Shown: piece by piece, positions 4,184-59,410 of the stretch
Numbering within the stretch: position 1 is the first letter of the stretch
Layout of the letters: each line of letters opens with the position of its first letter
Source: a virus
Taxonomy: Duplodnaviria; Heunggongvirae; Uroviricota; Caudoviricetes
Direction: 5' to 3' (one strand)
Virus record (IMG/VR): IMGVR_UViG_2875697941_000001
DNA length: 64,000 nt
Translations under genes and position numbers: made by a program
Notes under the pieces: model-generated
Told to the model about the DNA's origin: nothing
Databases searched by the model: none
The model's input: the letters and a program-made list of their open reading frames with translations, nothing else

Positions 4184-5029
4184 ATGCTGGCTAAAGTCAC
4201 TTTCCTGAGCTGTATAACGATGAGCGATTTTACTTTTTCTGGCTATGAATTGGCCTGCTTTGTAACACACTCCGGCCTATCCCGTAGCGCCGGGCATATC
4301 CTGTCGCAATGTGCAAATCTCGCGGCAACAACCAGTGAATACTTCATTCACAAGCCTCACCGCCTGATCGCGGCAGAAACTGGTTATAGCCAATCAACCG
4401 TCGTTCGTGCATTCCGTGAAGCTGTAAACAAAGGAATTCTGTCTGTAGAGATTGTTATCGGCGATCACCGTGAACGTCGCGCTAACCTGTACCGGTTTAC
4501 ACCATCCTTTTTGGCCTTCGCACAACAAGCCAAAAATGCGCTGATAGAAAGCAAATTAAAGATCTCTTCAGCGGCAACCAAGGTTAAAGCTGTTCTCGCT
4601 AAGACATTGGCTTTATTTAATTTTTTATCCACACCCCCATGTCAAAATGATACCCCCTCCCCCTGTCAGGATGACGTGGCAATAAAGAATAAGAAGTCAC
4701 AAGTTAAAAAAACAAAAAGATCAGTTTCCGGCGGTGCCGGAACGACCAGCCTCAAAAAATTGACTTCATGGATCGCTAAGGCAAAAGCAAAGGCTGACAA
4801 TCTGCGGTTATCCAAAAAACGCACTCAAAAACATGAGTTCAAGCAGAAAGTAGAGGCGGCTGCGCGGAAATATGCTTACCTGAAGAACAAGCGTTCGCCT
4901 GATATTGGCGGGATATCAAACTTCGATAACCTACCGCATTGCATGACGGTAAACGAAGCTCTTAATGCGGTTTTAGCCAAAAATAAAGATAACGAACAAT
5001 GGGGTATACCGGCAGGATTCAGAGGGTAA
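4184..5029 (+). CDS. repL: RepL-like lytic replication protein (HTH-containing)
   Basis: 281-aa ORF directly downstream of kilA as in P1 kilA-repL operon; length matches my recollection of P1 RepL; identity not verified. Confidence 0.45.
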   Translation: MLAKVTFLSCITMSDFTFSGYELACFVTHSGLSRSAGHILSQCANLAATTSEYFIHKPHRLIAAETGYSQSTVVRAFREAVNKGILSVEIVIGDHRERRANLYRFTPSFLAFAQQAKNALIESKLKISSAATKVKAVLAKTLALFNFLSTPPCQNDTPSPCQDDVAIKNKKSQVKKTKRSVSGGAGTTSLKKLTSWIAKAKAKADNLRLSKKRTQKHEFKQKVEAAARKYAYLKNKRSPDIGGISNFDNLPHCMTVNEALNAVLAKNKDNEQWGIPAGFRG

Positions 5030-5042
5030 TGAATTGCTCTAA

Positions 5043-5059
5043 TTATAACCATGCATACT
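5043..5059 (+). promoter_or_regulatory. degenerate C1 operator-like 17-mer (ATTGCTCTAATTATAAC)
   Basis: 13/17 match to operator consensus; precedes the AT-rich DUF3800-like cassette. Confidence 0.3.
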
Positions 5060-5197
5060 TTCAACACCTCTAGTTTGCCATGAGGCAAACTCATAGGTGT
5101 CCTGGTAAGAGGACACTGTTGCCAAAACTGGACGCCCCATTATTGCAATTAATAAACAACTAACGGACAATTCTACCTAACAATAAGTGGAGTTAAC

Positions 5198-5902
5198 ATG
5201 TTGAACCGAAGAACATTTAATGTATTCTGCGATGAATCCTGTCACCTACTAAATGATCATAATAAAGTCATGGTATTGGGTGCGCTTTGGTGTCCCGGCA
5301 CTATCACAAAAAAAATTGCTAGAGACATCAAGGAATTAAAATTAAAACACAATCTAAAACCTGATTTCGAAATCAAGTGGACTAAAGTATCTGCGTCCAA
5401 AGTTGAATTTTACTTAGATGTCGTAGATTACTTCTTCAGCAACCCTGCATTGCGCTTTAGAGGTGTTGTTGTTCCTGATAAAGAGCAACTGGACCATGCT
5501 CGATTCCATCAAGATCATAATACTTTCTATTATAAGATGTTTTTTTATGTCTTAAAAAACATAATAGAAAGTAACAACACATACAATATCTACCTAGATA
5601 TAAAAGATACTTTAGGTATTGAAAAAATTGAGAAATTAAGAGGGGTTCTTCACAATGATCGCTATGATTACAATCATGAGTCGATAAACAGAATTCAACA
5701 TATACGATCTCATGAAGTGCAGCAATTGCAGCTAACGGATCTTTTCATTGGCGCGTTAGGCTACGTTCATCGAGGAATGAATAGCAACGCGGGAAAAATC
5801 CAAGTCATAAACAGAATAAAATCACATACAAACAGGGAGTTACTAAAAAGTACTCTTCCAACAGAAAGTAAATTTAATATTTTCGTGTGGGAGGCTCGCT
5901 GA
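5198..5902 (+). CDS. DUF3800-like protein (N-terminal FCDESCH motif)
   Basis: 234-aa ORF; DES motif near N-terminus typical of DUF3800; strongly AT-rich relative to flanks; could correspond to P1 rlfA (unverified). Confidence 0.55.
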   Translation: MLNRRTFNVFCDESCHLLNDHNKVMVLGALWCPGTITKKIARDIKELKLKHNLKPDFEIKWTKVSASKVEFYLDVVDYFFSNPALRFRGVVVPDKEQLDHARFHQDHNTFYYKMFFYVLKNIIESNNTYNIYLDIKDTLGIEKIEKLRGVLHNDRYDYNHESINRIQHIRSHEVQQLQLTDLFIGALGYVHRGMNSNAGKIQVINRIKSHTNRELLKSTLPTESKFNIFVWEAR

Positions 5903-6366
5903 TGCTTCAAATGCCAGATTTATTGTACTTCAATGGAAGTTGGCAAGAGTATATAGACGATGTATATGATGTTGTTAGAGAAGATATTTTAATATCTAAT
6001 ATAACGTTTAAGGGTCTCCCTGTTCGATTACGTTATTCACCGGAATATAATGGGAAAGAATTCGGATTTTGGCATTTAGTATCAGAGGGAAAAATAGAAG
6101 AAGAACGTATACCCGATCTTGAACGGTGCAAGCGAATTCGCTGGATCGCGCACATGATAAGGAATTATAACCATTGCGATATATCATGTTGGTCTGAAAG
6201 ACGAGGACCAACTGAAGAGTGGGTAATCTGGAATGAGTGTGAAAACTACGTTGTTGTGCTATCCGCACGTAGAGACTATTGGCTTCTCAAAACAGCCTAT
6301 GTTGTAACCTATGACAGTAAAATCAGAACACTCAAACAAAGCAGAAAAAGAGCACTTGGGACATAA
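5902..6366 (+). CDS. hypothetical protein, translationally coupled partner of DUF3800-like gene
   Basis: ATG shares one base with upstream TGA (TGATG at 5900..5904); 154 aa from MLQMPDLLYF; AT-rich; could correspond to P1 rlfB (unverified). Confidence 0.5.
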   Translation: MLQMPDLLYFNGSWQEYIDDVYDVVREDILISNITFKGLPVRLRYSPEYNGKEFGFWHLVSEGKIEEERIPDLERCKRIRWIAHMIRNYNHCDISCWSERRGPTEEWVIWNECENYVVVLSARRDYWLLKTAYVVTYDSKIRTLKQSRKRALGT

Positions 6367-6373
6367 AAAGCTG

Positions 6374-6405
6374 AACCCGACACATATTGCTATGTATCGG
6401 GTTCG
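6374..6405 (+). terminator. hairpin downstream of the two-gene cassette
   Basis: GAACCCGACACATA / TATGTATCGGGTTC near-perfect inverted repeat; T-rich but interrupted tail. Confidence 0.3.
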
Positions 6406-6531
6406 ATCGCTCTTTCTACACATGGTAGATGAGTAATGCAAATCTAACCGATCTACTTTAGCTTTTCAATAGCTAGCTATAACTTTCCGCACATATTCTT
6501 CTGATAATTCAGGGAGAGCGGTTGGGTTTTT

Positions 6532-6828
6532 TCATGCTTTTCTGCGCAGAGAAGCACACTTATTCAGCAATAATAAGTGCAATTCTTTGTTATCACTAAG
6601 TATTTCTACACACCAATATCGTAACGTGTTCACTTCAAGTGTAGCCAGCACCTTATGTCGAAAAGCCCCCTCCCCTACACATAACGATGGCTGACATTCT
6701 GCTAAGGCACATAACCATGTATTGGCATCATAGAGAATCCAATAATGCTCCTCGGAAATAGTTTTGCATCCAATTATTTCGAATCTTCGTTCTATCGTTT
6801 CAGGAGAGTATGAAAAATCAATTTCCAT
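6532..6828 (-). CDS. hypothetical protein (Cys-rich, 98 aa), convergent with cassette
   Basis: ORF in AT-rich DNA; sits between two hairpin terminators. Confidence 0.4.
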   Translation of the reverse strand: MEIDFSYSPETIERRFEIIGCKTISEEHYWILYDANTWLCALAECQPSLCVGEGAFRHKVLATLEVNTLRYWCVEILSDNKELHLLLLNKCASLRRKA

Positions 6829-6872
6829 AATATGCTCAAAATTTCGCTATATTGACATGATTTAAGCACAAA

Positions 6873-6893
6873 AAAGCTCCCGAAGGAGCTTTA
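6873..6893. terminator. bidirectional hairpin terminator
   Basis: AAAAAAGCTCC-CGAA-GGAGCTTTAAAAT; A-run and T-run on either side. Confidence 0.4.
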
Positions 6894-6911
6894 AAATACA
6901 AGGGATGACTC

Positions 6912-7421
6912 TTAATCCCACTCAATCCAGTTGTAGACGATACGAAGTGACGGGCGCACAGCGGCAGTCACATCTTCGGTACTAAAGTCGATTGCATCAC
7001 TGTAGATTTTGCAGTCCAACATTTCAATTGTTGTAGCAGCTTTTGTCACAGCGTTAACCCCGGAAGATTTGGATTCAGGGGTCGCAGCCATCGTGATATC
7101 AACATAGTCCTTCGCCGCAATGCGATCTTTAATGAACTGAAGAATATCGCCTTCGATAGTCTCCACGCACTGGACCTGGATTTCCCCAGAGTTTCGAATT
7201 GGACCGTGCTGGTTGAACTTCACACCATTCGGACCATAGTCCTCCACATCCTCGCGGGTCATTTCAGGAATTTGCGACGTGCGAACCAGTACGCTGATAT
7301 CTTCATGGCCTGCAAAAGTGAGCTGGAATTCAGAAGATACCAGTCGTTCGCCTTTGGCCGCGTTGGCAGTATAGCGGCCCTTAATAAATTTACGGTTTCC
7401 CTTAGTGTTATTGTGCCCCAT
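6912..7421 (-). CDS. phage tail/baseplate structural protein (P1 bplA/pmgG region equivalent)
   Basis: 169-aa ORF in structural operon downstream of sheath gene; assignment by position in P1-like gene order. Confidence 0.45.
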   Translation of the reverse strand: MGHNNTKGNRKFIKGRYTANAAKGERLVSSEFQLTFAGHEDISVLVRTSQIPEMTREDVEDYGPNGVKFNQHGPIRNSGEIQVQCVETIEGDILQFIKDRIAAKDYVDITMAATPESKSSGVNAVTKAATTIEMLDCKIYSDAIDFSTEDVTAAVRPSLRIVYNWIEWD

Positions 7422-10524: not shown

Positions 10525-12252
10525 TTACTCAGAGTCACCGGCATCAATCGTGTCGCCGCTAATGAAGTTAAGCCCGCCTTTTTTGGCCATTGTCAGCGTT
10601 ACACGAGTGAAGTAATCAGCGCCGTTGCGTGGGTGCATATCGTTGATAGCCGAACCCCACAGCGTGGTACGGTTGACCAGCGCCGGAGTGGTCGGATGCT
10701 GGAACGGGATGGCCGGGACAGCATCACCAGTCACGAAGCCTGCTTTACCCGGATTTTCATCACGGACGTAGCACAGCACATCCATCGAGCTGAACTGAAT
10801 GTTCTCTGTCGTTAAGTTCTTACAAATACCAGCAGGTACTTCGTACACTTTCACGTTACCGAACAGGGTACCGATGTAGTGAACATACGGAGTCTGGATA
10901 TAGTCTTCGGCTGGCTGGAAGAAATCCTTCGGCAACTGTTTGAAGAAAGATGCTGCATCAGCACCAGCAAACATCCCCATCGCACCAGAAGATTTAACGC
11001 GCTCAATAATGTCGCGATATACAGTCTGGAATTTGCCACGAATGATGGTTGCCCATACATCAAAGGACTGGTTAACCGGCAGAGCGATGTCAAAGGTGTC
11101 GGTCGCAAGAGTGCGCCAGATCATGATGCGAAGACGCAGCATATCCTGTTCATGAGACAGGTATTCCTTCAGGGTGCGGAACTGTAGGGAACCCAGGTCC
11201 AGACCAAATTCACGCTGTGCTTCATACGCCGCCTGTACCGTGTGCTCAGCCGCGATAACGAACTGACTTGGGAACAGGGTGTATTTCTTCATTTCGTGGT
11301 TGATCAGCGGGATCAGCTCAGGAGCGGCTTCAATATTGATTTCCGTCTCAATTGCGATCTCAGTGCCTTTATCCGGCGCTTTGGAGAACGACAGGGCAAT
11401 CTGACCAATGTTGTAGTTCAGAGAGCAGGTAACAGTGATTTGCTCACCAGCAGCATTAGTAAACGAGTGAAGTAGGCTGCCGGAACCGTTATCAACAACA
11501 GACTTAATACGGTTAACGTAGATGTTAGTGCGACCTTTTCGGATTGGTACATTCTGGCCTTCGAAGTCTTCCATCTTGAAGGTTGCGGTTTTGCTGGTGC
11601 CATCGGAGCTTGCCACCAGCACATAGCGGCGACGTAACTGGCTGTACACACCGACGGATTGCATGTCCAGAACATCACCAGCAGCATAAGAACCAAAAGA
11701 TGAACCTGCCACGTTAAAGACTTCATAGATGTCGGACTGGTCACGCGTAACCGGAATGAAGGTACACGCATCAGCGGTAGCTGCCCCCAACTGAACAGGC
11801 AGGATCATCGCGAGGAATAAAGGCAGACGCATAACACCGTCAGAAACGCTCATCATCTCTGCTGCGACAGATTCCAGCATCGCTTTATTAGTGGCATCCA
11901 TGCTATTGCGGGTGGACTCAATCAGGCAGTTTTCCAGCGTCTGGTGGCAGGAGGCCAGAATTTCCGGACGCGGCATAGATTTATGTGCTGCGGCGTAGTC
12001 AGCCAGTGCACTTGCCCACGCTGTAGCGATTTGAGCGGTGGCATTATCAGAGATACCCACAAAAACCGGGTCTTTACGTGCAGCTTCAAGGATAGATGCG
12101 GCACGCGCGGCATCATCTTTAATGAATTGGTTATCAGTACCGAACTGCGCAGTGCTTGCCCAGCCAAGCACAGCTTTAGAGCGTTTTGCGATATCTGCAA
12201 TACGATTCTGGTATTCGCGTAAGTTACTCAATTTACTCTTCCTTAAACACAA
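10525..12252 (-). CDS. major head protein (P1 gp23-like)
   Basis: 575-aa ORF immediately downstream of parS on same strand, the position of gene 23 in P1. Confidence 0.5.
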   Translation of the reverse strand: MCLRKSKLSNLREYQNRIADIAKRSKAVLGWASTAQFGTDNQFIKDDAARAASILEAARKDPVFVGISDNATAQIATAWASALADYAAAHKSMPRPEILASCHQTLENCLIESTRNSMDATNKAMLESVAAEMMSVSDGVMRLPLFLAMILPVQLGAATADACTFIPVTRDQSDIYEVFNVAGSSFGSYAAGDVLDMQSVGVYSQLRRRYVLVASSDGTSKTATFKMEDFEGQNVPIRKGRTNIYVNRIKSVVDNGSGSLLHSFTNAAGEQITVTCSLNYNIGQIALSFSKAPDKGTEIAIETEINIEAAPELIPLINHEMKKYTLFPSQFVIAAEHTVQAAYEAQREFGLDLGSLQFRTLKEYLSHEQDMLRLRIMIWRTLATDTFDIALPVNQSFDVWATIIRGKFQTVYRDIIERVKSSGAMGMFAGADAASFFKQLPKDFFQPAEDYIQTPYVHYIGTLFGNVKVYEVPAGICKNLTTENIQFSSMDVLCYVRDENPGKAGFVTGDAVPAIPFQHPTTPALVNRTTLWGSAINDMHPRNGADYFTRVTLTMAKKGGLNFISGDTIDAGDSE

Positions 12253-59173: not shown

Positions 59174-59245
59174 GTGCGGTTTTACCGCATACCAATAACG
59201 CTTCACTCGAGGCGTTTTTCGTTATGTATAAATAAGGAGCACACC

Positions 59246-59410
59246 ATGCAATATGCCATTGCAGGGTGGCCTGTTGCTGGCTGCCCTTCCGAATCTTTAC
59301 TTGAACGAATCACCCGTAAATTACGTGACGGATGGAAACGCCTTATCGACATGCTTAATCAGCCAGGAGTCCCAAAGAATGGATCAAACACTTATGGCTA
59401 TCCAGACTAA
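59246..59410 (+). CDS. cIII: CIII (FtsH inhibitor)
   Basis: [54 protein letters not shown] matches lambda CIII. Confidence 0.95.
   Translation: MQYAIAGWPVAGCPSESLLERITRKLRDGWKRLIDMLNQPGVPKNGSNTYGYPD

What the first reader, a model, noticed from the sequence alone, without database searches (positions are those of the whole stretch)
5043..6893. AT-rich three-gene island: DUF3800-like protein, translationally coupled partner and convergent small Cys-rich gene
The 5198..5902 product starts with an FCDESCH motif typical of the uncharacterised DUF3800 family. Its stop overlaps the start of a 154-aa partner (TGATG). Both, plus a convergent 98-aa gene, lie in markedly AT-rich DNA bounded by hairpins and preceded by a degenerate C1-operator-like 17-mer. 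This may be the P1 rlfA/rlfB position downstream of repL, whose functions are unknown as far as I recall, so it is a compact candidate module.
Basis: partly seen in the sequence, partly recalled or inferred. Interest (0 to 1): 0.6.

Follow-up and report, generated by a model that had tools for sequence, protein, structure and literature searches.

The report
P1 rlfAB nuclease pair plus hidden sRNA
The AT-rich island is phage P1's rlfA-rlfB-pmgF cargo slot; rlfA and rlfB form a widely mobile two-nuclease candidate anti-phage module that always travels with a small antisense RNA gene, unannotated in the P1 and RefSeq records I checked, and many phages carry copies of that RNA alone.

Summary
Window 5044-6869 is 99.9% identical to phage P1 rlfA, rlfB and pmgF. 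It is a low-GC cargo slot between repL and bplB, filled in about one fifth of P1-like plasmids. RlfA is a DUF3800 protein with an RNase HII-like fold. RlfB is a coupled His/Arg-rich protein with a weak RelE/colicin-D-like fold. The pair equals PADLOC candidate PDC-M04. It sits in prophages and integrative elements, and in about a third of sampled bacterial loci inside type I restriction operons. CRISPRi shows it is dispensable for P1 growth, so the "replication-linked" name rests on position only. pmgF is not part of the module.

New here: a ~70-nt RNA gene (6434->6364, minus strand) with its own promoter, a near-invariant 5' hairpin and a terminator overlapping the rlfB stop. It follows rlfB in every rlfAB locus examined, shows strong covariation and matches no Rfam family. 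Most copies found in viral contigs are orphans, often in tRNA arrays.

Best model: a three-part toxin-antitoxin-like defence module in which the RNA restrains the nucleases. The mechanism is inferred, not shown.

The parts
5033..5049 (+). C1 operator Orlf (former Op55), degenerate. Its left 11 nt are P1 backbone and its right 6 nt are cargo.
   Evidence: GenBank annotation of AF234172 mapped to the window; backbone/cargo breakpoint at 5043/5044
5044..6869 (.). Variable cargo slot between repL and the bplB terminator. In P1 and P7 it holds rlfA, rlfB, the sRNA gene and pmgF, and it is low in GC.
   Evidence: PLSDB: repL in 516 plasmids, island in 101. Listed as variable region 5 in PMC9603915.
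5072..5117 (+). Two hairpins in the rlfA leader (5072-5091 and 5097-5117). They are not conserved in other rlfAB loci and their role is unknown.
   Evidence: leader fold z = -3.1; the upstream regions of 7 enterobacterial loci cannot be aligned
5143..5171 (+). Predicted sigma-70 promoter PrlfA (from the annotation only)
   Evidence: my consensus scan did not find it
5198..5902 (+). rlfA: DUF3800 protein with a predicted RNase HII-like nuclease fold. Invariant residues include D12, E13, D134, Q178 and D181.
5902..6366 (+). rlfB: translationally coupled partner of 154 aa. H58 is invariant; F56, W57, R69, R75, R78, W81 and W97 are nearly invariant. Weak RelE/colicin-D-like fold.
6364..6434 (-). 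Small RNA gene of ~70 nt, not annotated in the records checked. 5' hairpin CUCAUCUACCAUGUGUAGAAAGAG, linker, then an intrinsic terminator that overlaps the rlfB stop codon.
   Evidence: Covariance model hit 6365-6433(-), 74.6 bits, E 7.6e-15, the only hit in the window; covariation; fold z = -6.9; no feature in AF234172 and 'none' under all but 4 of the 12 listed RefSeq E. coli matches; no Rfam match
6441..6469 (-). Promoter of the sRNA: -35 TTGAAA, 17-nt spacer, -10 TAGATT, ending 7 nt before the RNA
   Evidence: Equivalent promoters scoring at least 9/12 with correct spacing occur in 45% of 75 loci, against 3.7% of shuffles.
6373..6404 (.). 14-bp hairpin shared by the converging transcripts. 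It is the terminator of the sRNA (and of pmgF read-through) on the minus strand and the probable 3' end of the rlfAB mRNA on the plus strand.
6532..6828 (-). pmgF: 98-aa Cys-rich protein restricted to the P1 lineage. It is not part of the rlfAB module and is probably a truncated allele of a ~198-aa gene.
   Evidence: non-essential
6873..6892 (-). bplB terminator hairpin; first backbone element to the right of the cargo

Best explanation
Window 5044-6869 is horizontally acquired cargo in a variable slot of the P1 genome. Its core is a self-contained three-part module.
1. RlfA is a DUF3800 enzyme with an RNase HII-like fold and a complete set of conserved acidic residues.
2. RlfB is a translationally coupled small protein with an invariant His and three near-invariant Arg, and a weak RelE/colicin-D-type RNase fold.
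3. A ~70-nt RNA is transcribed towards the two genes from its own promoter.

I propose that the module is a toxin-antitoxin-like, abortive-infection type anti-phage system carried by the P1 prophage. In this model the RNA binds and restrains one or both nucleases. Loss or titration of this presumably short-lived RNA during infection by another phage frees the nucleases to cut RNA (tRNA or mRNA) or RNA-DNA hybrids. Phages that carry the RNA alone would use it as a decoy.

Shown: gene identity, folds, obligate A-B-RNA linkage, RNA structure and strand, mobile and defence-island contexts, dispensability for P1, and orphan RNA copies in phages.
Inferred: anti-phage function, nuclease activity, which protein is the toxin, and the inhibitory role of the RNA.

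pmgF is a bystander.
For: Identity and dispensability:
- 99.9% identity to P1 rlfA/rlfB/pmgF.
- All three genes are non-essential by CRISPRi.
- The island is present in 101 of 516 repL-bearing plasmids. Other cargo replaces it in other P1-like phages: mokW, an IS605-family element, hypothetical genes.

Linkage and context:
- 79 of 80 bacterial rlfB loci from many phyla have rlfA immediately upstream. The exception is cut by a contig end.
- PADLOC assigns the pair to PDC-M04A/B, a candidate found by embedding in BREX/DISARM/RM systems.
- My own census of 30 loci found HsdS in 10, N6_Mtase in 9, HsdM_N in 8 and HSDR_N in 8. The usual order is hsdM-hsdS-[pair]-hsdR.
- Other copies sit beside integrases in an E. 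coli integrative element near a NACHT-domain gene, and in lambdoid prophages as morons.

Folds:

RNA:
- One strong covariance-model hit (33-79 bits) per intact rlfAB locus, adjacent to rlfB and antisense to it in every bacterial and P1-type locus. This includes loci not used to build the model. There are no strong hits (bit score >= 33) elsewhere in 1.39 Mb and none in P1-like phages that lack rlfAB.
- 96.3% of cells are paired, against 39-51% for slid controls. 15 of 19 pairs show double changes.
- 131 G-U cells against 16 A-C cells fix the strand.
- The promoter is conserved.
- The RNA is more conserved than the coding DNA.

Orphans:
- At least 120 viral contigs carry the 24-nt hairpin, but only 15 of the 80 fetched encode RlfA plus RlfB.
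- 27 of 60 orphan loci contain tRNA genes or arrays.
- SPbeta-like contigs carry two copies next to an Rfam DUF3800-VIII RNA.

Literature: DUF3800 genes are already known to associate with 11 unrelated terminator-bearing RNAs (PMC5737381), and DUF3800 serves as retron and CRISPR accessory.
Against: - No experiment shows anti-phage activity for PDC-M04 or for any DUF3800 protein. The validated candidates in the papers I read do not include it.
- Catalytic geometry in RlfA was judged only from residue positions along the predicted secondary structure.
- A C1 operator lies upstream. If C1 repressed rlfAB in lysogens, a role in protecting lysogens would be harder to sustain.
- The RNA could be a cofactor, guide or processing substrate rather than an inhibitor.
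- Orphan copies in tRNA arrays may have a function unrelated to RlfAB.
- In two viral loci the RNA is on the same strand as the genes.
- Some E. coli elements keep rlfA and the RNA with rlfB truncated or uncalled. That fits 'RlfB is the toxin' but is also ordinary decay.
Confidence: 0.5

Rival explanations
1. Lytic-replication accessory, the historical 'replication-linked function'. RlfA, as an RNase H-like enzyme, would process the transcript or R-loop that activates oriL inside repL, with RlfB assisting.
For: The genes lie directly downstream of repL/oriL and are annotated as 'possibly associated with lytic replication'. An RNase H-like fold could act on RNA-DNA hybrids. The genes are induced with repL early in P1vir infection.
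Against: They are non-essential for P1 plaque formation. They are absent from about 80% of repL-bearing P1-like plasmids. The same pair plus RNA occurs in many phyla with no repL nearby, inside type I RM operons, integrative elements and lambdoid prophages. The PHROG and RefSeq name 'replication protein' traces back to the P1 label only.
Confidence: 0.05
2. Plain addiction (toxin-antitoxin) module that stabilises the P1 plasmid prophage and other mobile elements, with no anti-phage role. RlfB would be the toxin, and RlfA and/or the sRNA the antitoxin.
For: The operon geometry resembles type II TA systems (coupled genes, small RelE-like product second). The convergent antisense RNA overlapping the 3' end resembles some type I systems. 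The module is carried on plasmids, prophages and integrative elements. In other P1-like phages the same slot holds a hok/mok-type gene.
Against: RlfA keeps an invariant enzyme-like active site, which is unusual for a simple antitoxin. Embedding inside RM operons on chromosomes is typical of defence genes rather than stabilisation. Orphan RNA copies in lytic-type phage tRNA arrays point to phage-host conflict. TA and abortive-infection roles are not mutually exclusive.
Confidence: 0.15
3. Selfish homing cassette. The nuclease pair would cut DNA at or near the conserved 24-nt sequence, so 'orphan' motifs would be empty target sites and rlfAB-linked motifs occupied ones.
For: The module is inserted at many unrelated places with a sharply conserved element at one end only. 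Orphan motifs lie in regions rich in HNH, GIY-YIG and other homing endonucleases. The RNase H-like fold is shared with some DNA-cutting enzymes.
Against: Compensatory changes with 131 G-U cells against 16 A-C cells show selection on an RNA of one strand. A promoter is conserved in front of the RNA. Loop insertions are tolerated. No second conserved end or target duplication was seen. The best structural matches are RNase HII/HIII, not transposases or homing enzymes.
Confidence: 0.08
4. The module serves the phage as counter-defence or RNA housekeeping. RlfAB plus the RNA would repair, process or protect tRNAs or other RNAs during infection, and the RNA would be a processed product of phage tRNA operons with its own function.
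For: The RNA is widespread in phage tRNA arrays, on the same strand as the tRNAs and next to ROOL RNAs. P1 itself is a phage. DUF3800 accompanies RNA-targeting CRISPR effectors.
Against: Most rlfAB copies lie in bacterial chromosomes inside RM operons, not in phages. The proteins are missing from most phages that carry the RNA. The module is dispensable for P1 growth on a laboratory host, although that host lacks most defences.
Confidence: 0.12

Closest known systems
PADLOC phage defence candidate PDC-M04 (cassette CAS_00034; Payne et al., bioRxiv 10.1101/2024.01.29.577857)
   Same: Both proteins match the A and B models (1e-95 and 1e-51), are adjacent and lie on the same strand. I reproduced the embedding in type I RM operons independently.
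   Different: PDC-M04 is defined by proteins only and was not validated in the papers I read. No paper I found links it to P1 rlfAB, and the RNA component is not part of its definition.
DUF3800-associated RNA motifs DUF3800-I to -XI (Weinberg et al. 2017, PMC5737381; Rfam RF02968, RF02969, RF03075 and others)
   Same: A small structured RNA, usually ending in an intrinsic terminator, encoded next to a DUF3800 gene on either strand. One of these motifs (DUF3800-VIII) lies beside orphan copies of the present RNA in SPbeta-like contigs.
   Different: No Rfam 15 model matches the present RNA, even at E <= 10. Its structure differs (a 24-nt near-invariant 5' hairpin plus a terminator). It is tied to the RlfB-containing subfamily. 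The function of all these RNAs is unknown.
Type III toxin-antitoxin / abortive infection systems (ToxIN), and their evasion by phage pseudo-ToxI RNA (own knowledge)
   Same: Works like: a protein nuclease proposed to be held in check by a cis-encoded small RNA, with phages carrying copies of that RNA alone.
   Different: Not a member. ToxI is a tandem repeat array upstream of toxN that the toxin itself processes. Here a single-copy RNA is convergent and downstream, two proteins are involved, and the folds differ (ToxN is Kid/MazF-like).
Retron type VII (RT + msDNA + DUF3800 effector; Mestre et al. 2020, PMC7736814)
   Same: A DUF3800 RNase H2-like protein as the presumed effector, combined with a structured nucleic acid encoded alongside.
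   Different: There is no reverse transcriptase or msDNA here. RlfA has the QxxD motif that the retron-linked DUF3800 proteins lack.
PrrC/RloC anticodon nucleases embedded in type I RM operons, and colicin D tRNase (own knowledge for PrrC/RloC)
   Same: The genomic position is the same (between hsdS and hsdR). The best fold match of RlfB is the colicin D tRNase domain. Phages with tRNA arrays are the usual counter-players of tRNA-cutting defences.

Membership tests
DUF3800 (Pfam PF12686) | Score above the Pfam gathering threshold | tested here: met
   54.2 bits against a cut-off of 21, E 3.5e-14, covering profile positions 1-148 of 149
DUF3800 (Pfam PF12686) | N-terminal DE motif and C-terminal QxxD motif (as described in PMC7736814) | tested here: met
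   D12-E13 (FCDESCH) and Q178-x-x-D181 are invariant in 44 sequences; motif definition
RNase H-like fold nucleases (RNase HII/H2 type) | Fold similarity to solved RNase HII/H2/HIII structures | tested here: met
RNase H-like fold nucleases (RNase HII/H2 type) | Four active-site carboxylates in catalytic geometry, and metal-dependent cleavage | tested here: inconclusive
   D12, E13, D134 and D181 are invariant. They fall at the end of beta-1, the end of a central strand and in a helix, as in RNase HII. No residue-level superposition was available, and activity cannot be tested with these tools.
PADLOC PDC-M04 | Both protein models matched, genes adjacent | tested here: met
   PDLC04353 at 1e-95 and PDLC04355 at 1.3e-51; the genes overlap by 1 nt
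PADLOC PDC-M04 | Protection against phage infection | not testable with these tools
   No experimental test was found in the source preprint or in later surveys
RelE/ParE / colicin D (BECR-type) RNase toxins | Significant fold or sequence similarity of RlfB | tested here: inconclusive
Type III toxin-antitoxin systems | Tandem repeats of antitoxin RNA upstream of the toxin gene, on the same strand | tested here: not met
   The RNA is single-copy, downstream and convergent. The resemblance is functional only.
Type I toxin-antitoxin systems with 3'-overlapping antisense RNA | Convergent antisense RNA overlapping the toxin mRNA 3' end, and a small hydrophobic toxin peptide | tested here: not met
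   The geometry is met, since the terminator overlaps the rlfB stop. The proteins are soluble enzyme-like products of 234 and 154 aa.
Rfam DUF3800-I to -XI RNA families | Match to one of the curated covariance models | tested here: not met
   Nothing matched at E <= 10 in P1 or L025. Nothing reached gathering score in 7 bacterial loci. In L140 only the neighbouring DUF3800-VIII is recognised.
DUF3800-associated small RNAs (as a class) | Structured RNA with covariation, linked to a DUF3800 gene, usually with a terminator | tested here: met
   Present in every intact rlfAB locus; 15 of 19 pairs show double changes and 96.3% of cells are paired; a U-tract follows the 3' hairpin
P1 C1-controlled operators | 17-bp asymmetric site close to ATTGCTCTAATAAATTT that binds C1 | tested here: inconclusive
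   12 of 17 positions match, all mismatches are in the right third, and the site is annotated as Orlf/Op55. Binding cannot be tested here, and the primary paper was not available.

The most novel reading that the evidence does not exclude
The ~70-nt RNA is the antidote (inhibitor) of a DUF3800-nuclease immune module. The many unrelated 'DUF3800 RNA motifs' known since 2017 would then be cognate antidotes of sister systems. Phages, especially those with tRNA arrays, would carry orphan copies, sometimes arrays of several classes, as RNA-mimicry anti-defence. On this reading phage P1 holds a genetically tractable example in E. coli.
Probability: 0.3. Interest if true: 0.85.

Novelty: new variant of a known kind. 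Interest (0 to 1): 0.68.

Why it matters
rlfA and rlfB have carried a placeholder "replication-linked" label in one of the best-studied phages since 2004. DUF3800 proteins and their eleven unexplained RNA partners have had no known function since 2017. This analysis shows that the P1 genes belong to a widespread candidate immune module. It also shows that the module has an obligatory RNA component, unannotated in the records checked, that phages carry on its own. Both questions therefore become testable with standard E. coli and P1 genetics.

If the RNA is an antidote, this would be a new RNA-controlled nuclease defence. It would also identify a new class of phage-encoded RNA decoys located in tRNA arrays. 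Even if the mechanism differs, database names should be corrected: RlfB is currently called "replication protein" or "oxidoreductase" without support. The RNA deserves a family entry.

Tried and rejected
- Rfam scans of P1 4800-7100, L025 and 22 other loci found no family for the RNA.
- Sequence-profile searches of PDB for RlfA and RlfB found nothing usable.
- Foldseek of RlfB against PDB was not significant.
- I looked for informative domain fusions of RlfB among 1763 clusters. The longer hits are mis-called N-terminal extensions.
- I looked for a conserved leader RNA upstream of rlfA. The upstream regions cannot be aligned and the two P1 hairpins are not conserved.
- pmgF as a module member was rejected.
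- I considered the RNA's hairpin as a simple terminator only. The near-invariant 5' hairpin, the promoter and the orphan copies rule this out.
- I considered the hairpin as an anticodon stem-loop mimic. The loop (C-CAUGU-G) lacks U33 and a purine at 37, so I dropped it as a specific claim.
- A search for the RNA sequence in the paper library gave no hits.
- The Lobocka 2004 P1 genome paper and the Weinberg 2017 supplement were not available. I therefore cannot fully exclude that the motif appears in a list that never entered Rfam.
Full report
**1. What is there**

They are 5198-5902 (+, 234 aa), 5902-6366 (+, 154 aa, ATG overlapping the TGA in TGATG) and 6532-6828 (-, 98 aa, six Cys). GC falls to 0.32-0.42 across 5100-6900, against 0.47-0.53 on both sides.

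Megablast shows that 4900-7000 is 99.9% identical to phage P1 (AF234172, NC_005856) and 97% identical to P7. The genes are rlfA, rlfB and pmgF, flanked by repL (4184-5029) and bplB (6912-7421).

P1's GenBank record annotates it as the C1 operator Orlf (former Op55).

Only about the first 22.7 kb of the window is P1-type DNA. The rest is lambdoid. This does not affect the finding.

**2. The island is a variable cargo slot**

P1-like phages that lack the three genes match the window only up to 5043 and again from 6870. The cargo is therefore 5044-6869. The left half of the operator (ATTGCTCTAAT) is backbone, and the hairpin at 6873-6892 is the bplB terminator.

Other P1-like phages carry different cargo in this slot:
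- a hok/mok-type gene (MH422554);
- an IS605-family element plus a 198-aa ORF (RCS47);
- other hypothetical genes (673R5, SJ46, Ro157c2YLVW).

In PLSDB, 516 plasmids carry P1-type repL but only 101 carry the island. Published comparisons already list rlfA-rlfB-pmgF as a low-GC variable region (PMC9603915, PMC6906374). A genome-wide CRISPRi screen scores all three genes as non-essential for P1 (PMC10695390). The label "possibly associated with lytic replication" is positional only.

**3. rlfA and rlfB are an obligate pair; pmgF is not part of it**

A pattern scan of one genome per GTDB species found 438 stretches that encode an RlfB relative. I examined the best 80, which come from Proteobacteria, Nitrospirota, Planctomycetota, Chloroflexota, Saccharibacteria, cyanobacteria and other phyla.

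In 79 of the 80, an RlfA homologue lies immediately upstream on the same strand. The exception is cut by a contig end. None of the 80 has a pmgF homologue.

PmgF has close relatives only in P1 and P7 elements. Its first 65 residues are 43% identical to the N-terminus of the ~198-aa protein that RCS47 and 673R5 carry next to bplB. It therefore looks like a truncated allele of a lineage-specific gene.

**4. What the proteins look like**

The database names "replication protein" (PHROG 16230, RefSeq) and "oxidoreductase" (NCBI) for RlfB have no support.

**5. Genomic company**

PADLOC-DB assigns the pair to PDC-M04A/B (1e-95 and 1e-51). This is one of 145 candidates proposed because they are found embedded in BREX, DISARM or RM systems (Payne et al., bioRxiv 2024). 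None of the papers I read reports an experimental test of it.

I checked this independently by taking the two nearest ORFs on each side in 30 loci. Type I RM domains were the most frequent families: Methylase_S in 10, N6_Mtase in 9, HsdM_N in 8, HSDR_N in 8 and ResIII in 11. The recurrent order is hsdM-hsdS-[pair]-hsdR. Other neighbours include YhcG/DUF1016, T5orf172, AAA_15, RhuM and a TOTE primase.

Enterobacterial copies sit in three other settings:
- next to the integrase of an E. coli integrative mobilisable element at guaA, near a NACHT-domain gene;
- at the integrase end of an Enterobacter lambdoid prophage;
- as an opposite-strand moron in a Serratia prophage.

These are the contexts expected of a mobile defence or toxin-antitoxin module, not of a replication factor.

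**6. A third component: a small RNA gene, unannotated in the records checked**

I aligned the flanks of seven enterobacterial loci that lie in unrelated contexts. The upstream regions could not be aligned. The ~75 nt after the rlfB stop were nearly identical, and more conserved than the proteins. The same element follows rlfB in essentially all 80 loci.

Read on the strand opposite to rlfAB, the element is a complete small gene:
- a -35/-10 promoter;
- 7-9 nt later, the sequence CUCAUCUACCAUGUGUAGAAGGAG, which forms a hairpin (CUC/GAG plus UCUAC/GUAGA) and carries loop insertions of 15-25 nt in some loci;
- a 4-5 nt linker;
- a GC-rich hairpin with a variable, covarying stem;
- AGCUUUUU.

In P1 the parts are as follows. 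The promoter is at 6469-6441 (TTGAAA, 17 nt, TAGATT). The RNA runs from about 6434 to 6364. The terminator hairpin is 6404-6373, and the 3' end overlaps the rlfB stop codon. The fold has a z-score of -6.9.

On a 73-sequence alignment:
- 96.3% of cells form pairs, against 39-51% when partners are slid by 1-3 columns;
- 15 of 19 pairs show changes on both sides;
- there are 169 compensatory cells, against 39 in shuffles (0 of 500 shuffles reach this).

There are 131 G-U cells and only 16 A-C cells. Pairing drops to 87.9% on the rlfAB strand, so the functional molecule is an RNA of the antisense strand. Promoters scoring at least 9/12 with correct spacing occur in 45% of loci, against 3.7% of shuffles.

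I built a covariance model from the alignment and searched 1.39 Mb on both strands. It finds one strong hit (33-79 bits) per intact rlfAB locus. L078 has two adjacent weak copies, and L056 is cut by the contig end. In all of these bacterial and P1-type loci the hit is antisense and adjacent to rlfB. This includes twelve loci that were not in the seed alignment. The model finds nothing in P1-like phages without rlfAB, and a single hit in the window (6365-6433, 74.6 bits, E 7.6e-15).

No Rfam 15 family matches the RNA, even at E <= 10. The P1 GenBank record has no feature there. In RefSeq E. coli genomes the RNA is found in 174 of 5426 genomes. Eight of the twelve listed matches have no annotated feature under them, and the other four overlap a neighbouring protein-coding gene. 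The RNA sequence does not occur in the paper library.

Weinberg et al. (2017) reported that DUF3800 genes are accompanied by eleven mutually unrelated RNA motifs. Many of these end in terminators, lie on either strand, and have unknown function. The present RNA fits that class but is a new structure. I could not check the Weinberg supplement.

**7. The RNA also occurs alone, in phages**

A scan of IMG/VR for the degenerate 24-mer returned at least 120 viral contigs. About 0.05 would be expected by chance, on my estimate. The model confirms the two-hairpin RNA in most of the 80 loci that were fetched.

Only 15 of the 80 encode RlfA and RlfB, and these always occur together. By tblastn, 12 of 75 testable loci have rlfB adjacent and convergent. 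In two of the 15 (L095, L147) the RNA lies on the same strand as the genes, about 85 nt downstream.

The remaining copies are orphans:
- They usually lie on the same strand as their neighbours, which are diverse: terminases, HNH and GIY-YIG endonucleases, exonucleases and methylases.
- 27 of 60 scanned loci contain tRNA genes, often arrays of 5-31 on the same strand, sometimes with ROOL RNAs.
- SPbeta-like contigs have two tandem copies followed about 60 nt later by an Rfam DUF3800-VIII RNA, which is structurally different.

The linkage is therefore asymmetric: rlfAB never occurs without the RNA, but the RNA often occurs without rlfAB.

**8. How it most likely works**

Shown:
- a mobile, dispensable, defence-island-type cassette;
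- two conserved enzyme-like proteins, one with an RNase HII-like fold;
- an obligatory, independently transcribed, structured antisense RNA;
- orphan copies in phages.

Inferred: the module is a toxin-antitoxin-like abortive-infection system. The RNA would bind and restrain the nuclease or nucleases. Infection would remove or titrate the RNA, for example through shut-off of host transcription. The freed enzymes would then cut RNA or RNA-DNA hybrids.

DUF3800 is the element shared by all the RNA-linked systems (retron type VII, the Cas12a2- and Cas13-associated proteins, and the Weinberg motifs). RlfA is therefore the more likely RNA partner. RlfB may be a second effector (a tRNase or mRNase) or an adaptor. 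Orphan RNAs in phages would be decoys, as pseudo-ToxI RNA is for ToxIN (own knowledge).

I put about 0.8 on [quoted passage not shown]. I put about 0.55 on an anti-phage role and about 0.35 on the RNA being the inhibitor.

The rivals are a replication accessory, a pure addiction module, a homing cassette that targets the motif, and a phage-serving RNA-processing function. They are weighed in the Rival explanations section of this report.

**9. Comparison with known systems and novelty**

The genes themselves are known P1 genes, and the protein pair is a listed but unvalidated PADLOC candidate. The following points are new as far as the papers and databases I could search show:
- the identification of P1 rlfAB as PDC-M04;
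- the fold-level description of both proteins;
- the removal of pmgF and of the replication label;
- above all, the conserved sRNA gene as an obligatory third component, with orphan copies in phage tRNA arrays.

The module works like a type III toxin-antitoxin system or a retron-type tripartite system. It fails the defining features of both: there are no RNA repeats upstream, and there is no reverse transcriptase. I therefore rate it a new variant of a known kind (DUF3800 plus partner RNA; candidate defence).

Noticed in passing
window 22,700-64,000: The window is composite. P1-type homology stops near 22.7 kb. Positions 22.8-24 kb match lambdoid side tail fibre/tfa genes, and 57.5-61.5 kb match lambdoid recT/exo/gam/kil/cIII. 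Rfam finds Lambda_thermo at 59233-59291 and an IS009 RNA at 22974-23172(-). This could be a P1-lambdoid hybrid element or a join of two replicons.
   Followed up: partly
window 6532-6828 (-); L004 7796-8392 (-); L003 2107-2622 (-): PmgF shares only its first 65 residues (43% identity) with a ~198-aa protein that other P1-like phages carry next to bplB. That longer protein has a weak GNAT acetyltransferase hit (E 0.04-0.06). pmgF looks like a truncated allele, and its 'morphogenetic' label is positional.
   Followed up: partly
window 6410-6433 (sRNA 5' hairpin): The near-invariant hairpin contains AAGGAG, a perfect Shine-Dalgarno sequence, on the RNA strand. On the rlfAB strand it reads CUCCUU, which resembles the anti-SD sequence. 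Whether this relates to ribosome or 16S rRNA mimicry is unknown.
   Followed up: no
L132, L140, L142, L173 (SPbeta-like viral contigs), e.g. L140 4126-4369: Two tandem copies of the new RNA are followed about 60 nt later by an Rfam DUF3800-VIII RNA, all on one strand. No DUF3800 protein is encoded in the fetched stretch. This looks like an array of different DUF3800-class RNAs.
   Followed up: partly
L095 8027-8092 and L147 7499-7564: In these two viral contigs the RNA lies on the same strand as the rlfA/rlfB homologues, about 85 nt downstream, rather than convergent.
   Followed up: no
L087 and L088 (E. coli integrative element at guaA), ~10,700-11,250: rlfA and the sRNA are intact, but rlfB is uncalled (L087) or truncated to 109 aa (L088). 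Loss of RlfB is therefore tolerated while RlfA stays.
   Followed up: no
window 5072-5117: Two stable hairpins lie in the rlfA leader inside the cargo, upstream of the predicted PrlfA. They are not conserved in other rlfAB loci and no terminator-type U-run follows them.
   Followed up: partly
L134, L139, L174 (viral contigs); L031 5400-5513: ROOL RNAs (about 570 nt) lie in the same phage tRNA arrays as the orphan sRNA copies. A LOOT RNA lies about 5 kb from a Saccharibacteria rlfAB locus.
   Followed up: no
L078 10450-10591; L010 10593-10664: A few bacterial loci have a second, weaker or degenerate copy of the RNA directly beside the first.
   Followed up: no
RlfB homologues in public databases: RlfB relatives are named 'oxidoreductase' by NCBI and 'replication protein' by PHROGs and RefSeq. 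Neither name has support from sequence, fold or context.
   Followed up: yes
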